869 nucleotides of DNA from Escherichia coli. GTDB lineage: Bacteria > Pseudomonadota > Gammaproteobacteria > Enterobacterales > Enterobacteriaceae. A model generated the notes under the pieces. That model was not told where the DNA came from and searched no databases. It saw only the letters and a list, made by a program, of their open reading frames with translations. The translations under genes were made by a program, and so were the position numbers. The stretch lies in the NCBI RefSeq assembly GCF_003334815.1, contig NZ_QOWO01000115.1. The stretch is one strand, 5' to 3'. Below are positions 1 to 869 of the stretch, piece by piece; position 1 is the stretch's first letter, and the number at the start of each line of letters is the position of its first letter.

Positions 1-76
1 CGCGGGGAAGTTCAGGCCGCTACGGCCTCTGCAACCGGCTTAGCGTGCTTTATTTTCCGTTTTCTGAGACGACCCC
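1..76. mobile_element. Terminal segment of a Tn3-family transposon (Tn5393-like or Tn21-like) inserted into the colicin gene; the body of the element lies beyond the left window edge
   Basis: Terminal inverted repeat at 39-76 plus 38 bp of GC-rich interior sequence at 1-38 (minus-strand read CCGGTTGCAGAGGCCGTAGCGGCCTGAACTTCCCCGCG). If the element is Tn5393-like, I recall its inverted repeats being about 81 bp, in which case all of 1-76 would be repeat; this cannot be confirmed from the window alone. Confidence 0.75.
39..76 (-). repeat. 38-bp terminal inverted repeat of a Tn3-family transposon (Tn21/Tn5393 subgroup); outer end at position 76, transposon interior towards position 1
   Basis: Reverse complement of 39-76 is GGGGTCGTCTCAGAAAACGGAAAATAAAGCACGCTAAG. 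The GGGG outer terminus, the internal ACGGAAAA motif and the inner TAAG are hallmark features of Tn3-family inverted repeats. The repeat begins exactly where the colicin-matching sequence stops, and composition shifts from AT-rich colicin sequence to GC-rich sequence at 1-38. Confidence 0.85.
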
Positions 77-869
77 TATGATGGTTTCTGTTTTAACAAA
101 AAGAGGACGCCAGTTCTCTGTCCGGACAGCCTTACCAAACTCAGTGATCCAGTCAGCAAGACTTGTAAATTTTCCTGCATATCCCAGTCCCCGACTGAAT
201 CTGTTCAGATTAGACGATATATCAGACAGCTTCACAGACTCAAGGGCTGCGGCAATCGCTGCACGATCTTTTGCATTAATTTTTTTGTTAATGTCAGCCC
301 GGTACTTTTCATACGTTTTTAATGCCTCTTCAACATTACGTATTTTCTTCCCTTTAGCCTGCCCGGCCATCTCTCTGGCTAACTGCTCAGCTTTTGCACC
401 ATATTTTTCTGAAACTGATTTCAGGAACTCTGTTGTGAAATTAATTGCGTCTTTCGTTGCCTTCAGTTCATCCTGTTTTCTTTTCTCTTCCGCTATCTTC
501 TGATTGATGCCGGAAAGCTGGTTACGGATATTCTCTTTTTCCTTCAACAGGGCATTAAGAGCGTCATTTGCATGCTTTTGCTCATTTGTTCTGGCACTGA
601 GGTTATTTCTCGCCGAATTTACCGCAGATTCAGCAGAGGTGATTTTATTTCTGGCATCAAGCAATCTTTGCCGTAACTTATCCCATTCAGCAACTTCAGC
701 ATTATAAATTTTCTTGTCACCTTCCACATCCTCTGTCACCACCGGATTCTGGTCATTCAGAATATTGCGTTTATAGTCCAGACCGGAATGGCTCAGAAGA
801 TAATTCAGGTTTGCACGGTTATCGATGACTGCGCTGGTTGTGATTTTTATCGTACCGGCAAATCTCGGA
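50..869 (-). CDS. cia: Colicin Ia-type pore-forming colicin, partial: N-terminus lies beyond the right window edge; 3' end truncated by transposon insertion at 76/77, so the last 8 codons (GVVSENGK) and the TAA stop (50-52) come from the transposon inverted repeat. Probably a non-functional (pseudogenised) colicin.
   Basis: The minus-strand frame is open from 868 to the stop at 50-52 (my translation of 743-868 gives PRFAGTIKITTSAVDINRANLNYLLSHSGLDYKRNILNDQNPV with no stop, continuing into the supplied ORF). The 'M' at 740-742 in the ORF track is a GTG valine codon. The translation (...VTEDVEGDKKIYNAEVAEWDKLRQRLLDARNKITSAESAVNSARNNLSART...KDAINFTTEFLKSVSEKYGAKAEQLAREMAGQAKGKKIRNVEEALKTYEKYRADINKK...NWRPLFVKTETII) matches my recollection of colicin Ia and differs from colicin Ib at the positions where I recall those two diverging. 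Canonical colicin Ia continues ...ETIIAGNAATALVALVFSILTG... to ...KFWGI; here the frame instead reads GVVSENGK then stops. Confidence 0.88.
   Translation of the reverse strand, partial: PRFAGTIKITTSAVIDNRANLNYLLSHSGLDYKRNILNDQNPVVTEDVEGDKKIYNAEVAEWDKLRQRLLDARNKITSAESAVNSARNNLSARTNEQKHANDALNALLKEKENIRNQLSGINQKIAEEKRKQDELKATKDAINFTTEFLKSVSEKYGAKAEQLAREMAGQAKGKKIRNVEEALKTYEKYRADINKKINAKDRAAIAAALESVKLSDISSNLNRFSRGLGYAGKFTSLADWITEFGKAVRTENWRPLFVKTETIIGVVSENGK

What the first reader, a model, noticed from the sequence alone, without database searches (positions are those of the whole stretch)
50..76. Inverted repeat supplies an 8-residue tail and the stop codon of the truncated colicin
Reading the inverted repeat in the colicin frame gives GGG GTC GTC TCA GAA AAC GGA AAA TAA, i.e. 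GVVSENGK followed by a stop. The truncated product is therefore a colicin-transposon fusion with a defined neo-C-terminus. This is direct sequence evidence that the break is an insertion junction and not a sequencing or assembly frameshift.
Basis: seen in the sequence. Interest (0 to 1): 0.45.

Follow-up and report, generated by a model that had tools for sequence, protein, structure and literature searches.

The report
Tn21 end truncates colicin Ia gene
A common mercury/antibiotic-resistance transposon (Tn21 type) has landed in a colicin Ia toxin gene, removing the part that forms the membrane pore and adding eight transposon-encoded residues and a stop codon; this is an ordinary gene knock-out by a mobile element.

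Summary
On the minus strand, 76..50 reads GGG GTC GTC TCA GAA AAC GGA AAA TAA, which is GVVSENGK plus a stop, in frame with colicin Ia.

- **Tn21 side:** window 1-76 is 76/76 identical to the tnpA end of Tn21 in plasmid R100. It holds the tnpA stop (TAG, 41-43) and the 38-bp terminal inverted repeat (39-76).
- **Colicin side:** window 77-869 is 793/793 identical to an intact cia gene.
- **Cross-identity is at chance level:** 20/76 and 31/100.
- **Junction:** homology switches at 76/77. Base 76 fits both partners, so the alignment alone leaves one base of ambiguity.
- **Effect on the protein:** colicin Ia is cut after residue 575 of 626. It loses the H8-H9 hydrophobic hairpin and H10 of the pore domain, so the 583-residue product is predicted to be non-toxic.

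Limits:
- Only one arm of the repeat is in the window.
- The window is a complete 869-bp contig of an E. coli draft assembly (QOWO01000115.1) and stops 76 nt inside the transposon.
- The other transposon end and the expected 5-bp duplication (TATGA) could not be found.
- An early stop is not remarkable. All three inward frames of the repeat close within 8-20 codons.

This is a known kind of event, and interest is low.

The parts
1..43 (+). 3' end of the Tn21-type transposase gene tnpA: last 13 codons, AGKFRPLRPLQPA, with stop TAG at 41-43
   Evidence: Identical to the end of WP_001138064.1 tnpA in R100 (...GAGKFRPLRPLQPA*). DNA is 76/76 identical over window 1-76.
39..76 (-). 38-bp terminal inverted repeat of Tn21 (tnpA side); the outermost base is 76. 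Only this arm is in the window.
   Evidence: Exact single match, 0 in 200 shuffles. Identical to the R100 Tn21 end. 35/38 identical to the mer-side repeat of R100.
50..76 (-). The finding: eight repeat-encoded codons (53-76, GVVSENGK) and the new TAA stop (50-52) of the truncated colicin
   Evidence: Translation.
77..81 (.). Target pentanucleotide TATGA (TCATA in the cia sense). It is predicted to be duplicated at the other transposon end.
   Evidence: It abuts the repeat terminus. In R100, Tn21 is flanked by a 5-bp duplication, TATTA. The duplication here was not observed.
77..868 (-). Colicin Ia gene (cia), codons 312-575: end of the receptor-binding region and helices H1-H7 of the pore-forming domain
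   Evidence: 793/793 identical over 77-869 to intact cia, which lies beside the colicin Ia immunity gene in CP024481. Matches PDB 1CII colicin Ia at E 7.5e-165. Pfam PF11504 and PF01024.
793..869 (.). Contig-end stretch upstream of the polymorphic cia nucleotide 1010 (window 792). It is shared with other colicin I alleles.
   Evidence: At least 24 contigs from other assemblies end at cia nt 1008-1010. The S337/T337 difference lies at nt 1010. The window extends exactly 77 nt past it.

Best explanation
The window is the junction between the tnpA end of a Tn21-type (Tn3-family) transposon and the colicin Ia structural gene of an E. coli plasmid. The transposon end sits immediately after codon 575 of cia.

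Transcription and translation from the cia start would run into the 38-bp terminal repeat, add GVVSENGK and stop at the repeat's TAA. That gives a 583-residue protein in place of the 626-residue colicin.

The lost 51 residues are the loop 576-579, helices H8 and H9 (the hydrophobic hairpin that inserts into the inner membrane) and H10. The product should therefore keep its translocation and receptor-binding domains but be unable to form a channel, so cia is inactivated.

- **Shown:** both sequence identities, the exact breakpoint, the reading frame and what is lost.
- **Inferred:** that this was a simple replicative insertion with a TATGA duplication, that the immunity gene survives at the far end, and that toxicity is lost.
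For: - Window 1-76 is 76/76 identical to R100 Tn21, including the tnpA stop and the 38-bp repeat.
- Window 77-869 is 793/793 identical to intact cia. Cross-identities are at chance level.
- About 2,150 PLSDB plasmids carry this same 76-nt end, annotated as Tn21/TnAs3-family transposase.
- The breakpoint falls exactly at the outermost base of the repeat, as expected for transposase-made joints.
- The flank TATGA is AT-rich, like the TATTA duplication of Tn21 in R100 and like Tn3-family targets in general (PMC4133298).
- The intact protein has 626 residues, TETII lies at 571-575 and 51 residues are lost.
- Pfam PF01024 spans residues 440-622.
- Helix limits are H7 to 575, H8 580-594, H9 597-612 and H10 from 614. 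The hydrophobic segment inserts as the transmembrane hairpin (PMC2585860).
- GenBank already carries the 272-residue partial product, RCR40621.1.
Against: - The other end of the element and the 5-bp duplication were not seen. The predicted product of the reciprocal junction is not on record. No complete E. coli genome or PLSDB plasmid holds either junction.
- Only 76 nt of the element are present, so its completeness and exact identity within the Tn21 subgroup are unknown.
- No expression or activity data exist.
Confidence: 0.9

Rival explanations
1. The junction was made by the Tn21 transposase but is not a simple insertion. It could come from intramolecular replicative transposition (adjacent deletion or inversion), one-ended transposition, or later recombination between Tn21 copies. 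In that case the cia 3' remnant and the immunity gene are not at the other end of the same element and may be absent.
For: - The reciprocal junction was not found anywhere.
- The contig stops 76 nt inside the element. This is the signature of a repeat present more than once in the genome, so recombination partners exist.
- One-ended transposition of Tn21 is documented (Avila et al. 1988, cited in PMC4133298).
Against: - Failure to find the reciprocal junction is weak evidence. The source assembly is not in the DNA collections that could be searched, and NCBI annotation would not give a protein for such a remnant.
- Simple insertions are the common outcome for Tn3-family elements.
Confidence: 0.15
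2. Assembly chimera: the de Bruijn graph joined a Tn21 end to cia although no molecule carries the joint.
For: The window is a short (869 bp) contig from a short-read draft, and both its ends lie at graph forks.
Against: - The joint lies 76 nt from the contig end, so k-mers spanning it must exist in the reads.
- It falls exactly at the terminal base of the repeat, which a random chimera would not do.
- There is no shared sequence between cia and Tn21 at the joint beyond one base.
- The contig is recorded in two samples.
Confidence: 0.02
3. Frameshift or sequencing error in an otherwise intact cia gene.
For: None.
Against: DNA identity to cia drops from 793/793 to 20/76 at the breakpoint, and the replacing sequence is 76/76 Tn21.
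Confidence: 0

Closest known systems
Tn21 (Tn3 family, Tn21 subgroup) as carried by plasmid R100/NR1, NC_002134
   Same: The last 38 nt of tnpA and the 38-bp tnpA-side terminal repeat are identical, 76/76. The AT-rich pentanucleotide target resembles that of R100 (TATGA here, TATTA there).
   Different: Only 76 nt are available. The resolvase, res site, integron, mer operon, second repeat and target duplication are not seen. Other Tn21-subgroup elements with the same end cannot be excluded.
Colicin Ia (cia) of IncI-type plasmids, e.g. CP024481; crystal structure 1CII
   Same: Codons 312-575 are identical at the DNA level. The Colicin_Ia (PF11504) and pore-domain (PF01024) signatures are present.
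   Different: The allele ends at residue 575 plus 8 foreign residues. It lacks H8, H9 and H10 of the pore domain. The immunity gene is not in the window.
Gene truncation with a short element-encoded tail at transposon or IS insertion junctions (a general phenomenon)
   Same: The host reading frame runs into the terminal repeat and stops at the first in-frame stop codon of the element.
   Different: Nothing special. The tail length (8) is one of three possible for this end (8, 11 or 20). The mer-side repeat would give a near-identical GGTSENGK*.

Membership tests
Tn3-family transposon, Tn21 subgroup | 38-bp terminal inverted repeat beginning GGGG at the outermost end | tested here: met
   39-76 is an exact match to the R100 Tn21 tnpA-side repeat.
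Tn3-family transposon, Tn21 subgroup | tnpA reads towards the repeat and terminates inside it | tested here: met
   The last 13 codons and the TAG at 41-43 are identical to R100 tnpA. Only 13 codons are available.
Tn3-family transposon, Tn21 subgroup | Second terminal repeat in inverted orientation at the other end | not testable with these tools
   It is not in the window. The rest of the source assembly is not held.
Tn3-family transposon, Tn21 subgroup | 5-bp direct duplication of the target | not testable with these tools
   The predicted reciprocal junction (cia remnant + TATGA + repeat) is absent from the exact-product index, complete E. coli genomes and PLSDB. The R100 copy shows a TATTA duplication.
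Tn3-family transposon, Tn21 subgroup | tnpR/res, class 1 integron and mer operon (Tn21 proper) | not testable with these tools
   All lie beyond the contig end.
   No Tn5393 reference was fetched. The 76/76 identity to Tn21 of R100 already accounts for the sequence.
Colicin Ia | Sequence identity to cia, which lies beside the colicin Ia immunity gene in the reference | tested here: met
   793/793 nt identical to cia of CP024481, which is adjacent to 'colicin 1A immunity protein'. Colicin Ib differs at 270 of 1881 nt.
Colicin Ia | Complete pore-forming domain, including the H8-H9 hydrophobic hairpin | tested here: not met
   The ORF ends after residue 575. PF01024 spans 440-622 in the intact protein. 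H8 is 580-594 and H9 is 597-612. The gene is a truncated allele, not a functional colicin gene.
Colicin Ia | Cognate immunity gene downstream on the opposite strand | not testable with these tools
   It would lie beyond the transposon and is not in the window.

The most novel reading that the evidence does not exclude
The truncated colicin keeps intact translocation and Cir-binding domains but lacks the pore hairpin. It might be retained because it is useful, for example as a harmless receptor-occupying decoy released under SOS that protects kin from colicins Ia and Ib, or as relief from the cost of toxin production while immunity is kept. Under that reading it would be more than a dead gene. 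Nothing here supports selection. The junction is seen in one draft assembly only.
Probability: 0.03. Interest if true: 0.45.

Novelty: already known. Interest (0 to 1): 0.08.

Why it matters
The result matters little beyond annotation.
- It shows that the 'partial colicin-like pore-forming protein' RCR40621.1 is a transposon-truncated, probably inactive colicin Ia allele. Colicin typing of this isolate from gene presence alone would therefore over-call production.
- It marks an insertion site for a Tn21-type resistance transposon in an IncI-type plasmid backbone that is not present in about 500 complete plasmids carrying the site. This could serve as an epidemiological marker if it is found again.

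Tried and rejected
- **Looking for the same junction elsewhere.** It was not found in PLSDB, complete E. coli genomes, GTDB representative genomes or JGI metagenome contigs. Only the source contig holds it.
- **Exact-product look-ups.** The full 583-residue product, a 256-residue k=31-style fragment and a 575-residue open-ended fragment are not on record.
- **Reciprocal junction.** The predicted 78-residue product is not on record. A synthetic 200-nt junction query was not spanned in E. coli genomes or PLSDB. A protein search with the predicted junction peptide returned only cia C-terminal fragments without repeat-derived residues.
- **BLAST extensions.** Matches of Tn21 flanks to window 77-93 in other plasmids looked like possible remnants of the same insertion. 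Inspection showed unrelated flanks with chance similarity.
- **Evolved stop codons.** I considered whether the stops in the repeat are an evolved read-through barrier. Stops in all three frames within 25 codons are expected in about one third of random sequences, so I rejected the idea.
- **Literature.** A search for Tn21 in cia found no description of this insertion. The Tn21 review PMC103744 is not held.

Full report
**What is in the window.** The minus strand carries one long open frame that runs off the right end and stops at 50-52. Its product ends ...GKFTSLADWITEFGKAVRTENWRPLFVKTETIIGVVSENGK*.

**What the two halves are.** A megablast of the whole window against 72,556 plasmids gave colicin Ia genes covering 76-869 at 100% identity. 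No record covered the whole window. The first 110 bases hit thousands of plasmids at the end of a gene annotated as a Tn21/TnAs3-family transposase.

I fetched the Tn21 tnpA end of R100 and an intact cia locus with its immunity gene from CP024481. I then compared them with the window base by base:
- Window 1-76 against Tn21: 76/76.
- Window 77-176 against Tn21: 31/100.
- Window 77-869 against cia: 793/793.
- Window 1-76 against cia: 20/76.

Homology therefore switches abruptly. Base 76 fits both partners, so the alignment alone places the break at 75/76 or 76/77. The 38-bp repeat (39-76, starting GGGG) places it at 76/77.

On the plus strand, 2-43 encodes AGKFRPLRPLQPA*, the C-terminus of the R100 transposase, with the TAG at 41-43 inside the repeat. 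This is therefore the tnpA-side end of a Tn21-type element. In R100 the mer-side repeat differs at 3 of 38 positions. Only one arm is in the window.

**Consequence for the colicin.** Intact colicin Ia has 626 residues, and TETII is 571-575. The allele here loses AGNAATALVALVFSILTGSALGIIGYGLLMAVTGALIDESLVEKANKFWGI (51 residues) and gains 8. Pfam places the pore-forming domain at 440-622, and the window product aligns to the 1CII structure up to the breakpoint. According to Kienker et al. 2008 (PMC2585860):
- H7 ends at 575, H8 is 580-594, H9 is 597-612 and H10 starts at 614.
- The 573-612 hydrophobic segment inserts as the transmembrane hairpin.

The cut falls exactly at the end of H7 and removes the whole hairpin and H10. 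Loss of channel formation is an inference from that established knowledge. It was not tested here.

**Is the tail remarkable?** No. A stop within nine random codons has probability 0.35. The three inward frames of this repeat close after 8, 11 and 20 codons. The mer-side repeat in the same frame would give GGTSENGK*. Any gene entered by this element gets a short tail.

**Where the window comes from, and what that limits.** An exact look-up of the 272-residue partial product found one contig, QOWO01000115.1 of GCA_003334815.1. It is 869 bp long, so it is the whole window. NCBI annotates the product as 'colicin-like pore-forming protein, partial [Escherichia coli]', RCR40621.1.

The contig stops 76 nt inside Tn21 at one end. 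At the other end it stops 77 nt beyond cia nucleotide 1010. That nucleotide is a polymorphic site (S337 versus T337 in other cia alleles and in cib). At least 24 contigs from unrelated assemblies also end there. This is the pattern of a k=77 assembly graph broken at forks.

I infer three things from this:
- The genome holds more than one copy of this Tn21-type end.
- It probably holds a second colicin I allele.
- The joint is supported by read k-mers, but nothing beyond 76 nt of the element is known.

**Is it a simple insertion?** The exact coincidence of the break with the terminal base of the repeat shows a transposase-made joint. The AT-rich flank TATGA fits too. R100's Tn21 is flanked by a TATTA duplication, and Tn3-family elements make 5-bp duplications in AT-rich DNA (PMC4133298).

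The decisive feature, the same pentanucleotide at the other end, could not be checked:
- The predicted reciprocal-junction product is not on record.
- A synthetic junction query is not spanned in complete E. coli genomes or PLSDB.
- The junction itself is absent from PLSDB, complete E. coli genomes, GTDB representatives and JGI metagenomes.
- Of 514 plasmids holding the target site, 500 have it uninterrupted, and none is broken at this position.

A deletion or inversion product of intramolecular transposition therefore remains a minor alternative.

**Comparison with what is known, and verdict.** Both components are identical to long-known sequences (Tn21 of R100 and colicin Ia). The phenomenon, a transposon end closing a host reading frame, is routine.
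- The element is Tn21-type, not Tn5393.
- Only one arm of the repeat is present.
- A complete insertion with a target duplication is not yet proven.

Novelty is 'already known', and interest is low.

Noticed in passing
window 1-869: The window is an entire 869-bp contig (QOWO01000115.1, E. coli draft GCA_003334815.1). It ends 76 nt inside Tn21 and 77 nt past a polymorphic cia site. That is the signature of a k=77 assembly graph broken at two forks. It implies, by inference only, more than one copy of the Tn21-type end and a second colicin I allele in the same genome.
   Followed up: partly
window 792-796 (cia nt 1006-1010); loci L005-L014: At least 24 contigs from unrelated isolate and metagenome assemblies end at cia nucleotides 1008-1010, giving an identical 336-residue partial product. 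The site is the S337/T337 difference between colicin I alleles. This is a recurrent assembly break caused by co-occurring alleles.
   Followed up: partly
L017, L018, L020, L021 and L023, position 1 (cia nt 1721; window 77-81 equivalent): Five contigs from independent samples, made by different assemblers, begin exactly at TCATAGCAGG. That is the pentanucleotide predicted to be duplicated by this insertion, followed by the cia 3' remnant and the immunity gene. Other contigs start 1-2 nt later, which an ATC/ATT variant explains. I could not tie the five to a Tn21 junction, and they remain unexplained.
   Followed up: partly
window 77-84 versus L001 3577-3584: The flank of Tn21 in R100 (TATTATGG) and the flank here (TATGATGG) share 7 of 8 bases, although the surrounding DNA is unrelated. 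This could be chance or a target preference. With two sites nothing can be concluded.
   Followed up: no
window 41-52: The tnpA stop (TAG 41-43, plus strand) and the new colicin stop (TAA 50-52, minus strand) lie 6 nt apart on opposite strands, both inside the 38-bp repeat. The two convergent reading frames therefore end almost back to back.
   Followed up: no
window 55/56 (hits H111-H113): Several plasmids match window 1-55 at 100% and then stop, so their copy of the repeat is interrupted after position 55. From memory, IS4321/IS5075-type elements target Tn21-family repeats, but I did not check this. The repeat in the window is intact.
   Followed up: no
window 45-503, plus strand: A 152-codon ORF starts at a GTG inside the repeat and runs antisense to cia. 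It is almost certainly a by-product of the opposite-strand coding sequence and not a gene.
   Followed up: no
proteins P0012 and P0018: Other public assemblies carry cia C-terminal remnants fused to unrelated N-terminal residues, for example in Salmonella Give. Disruption of the 3' part of cia by other events therefore seems common.
   Followed up: no
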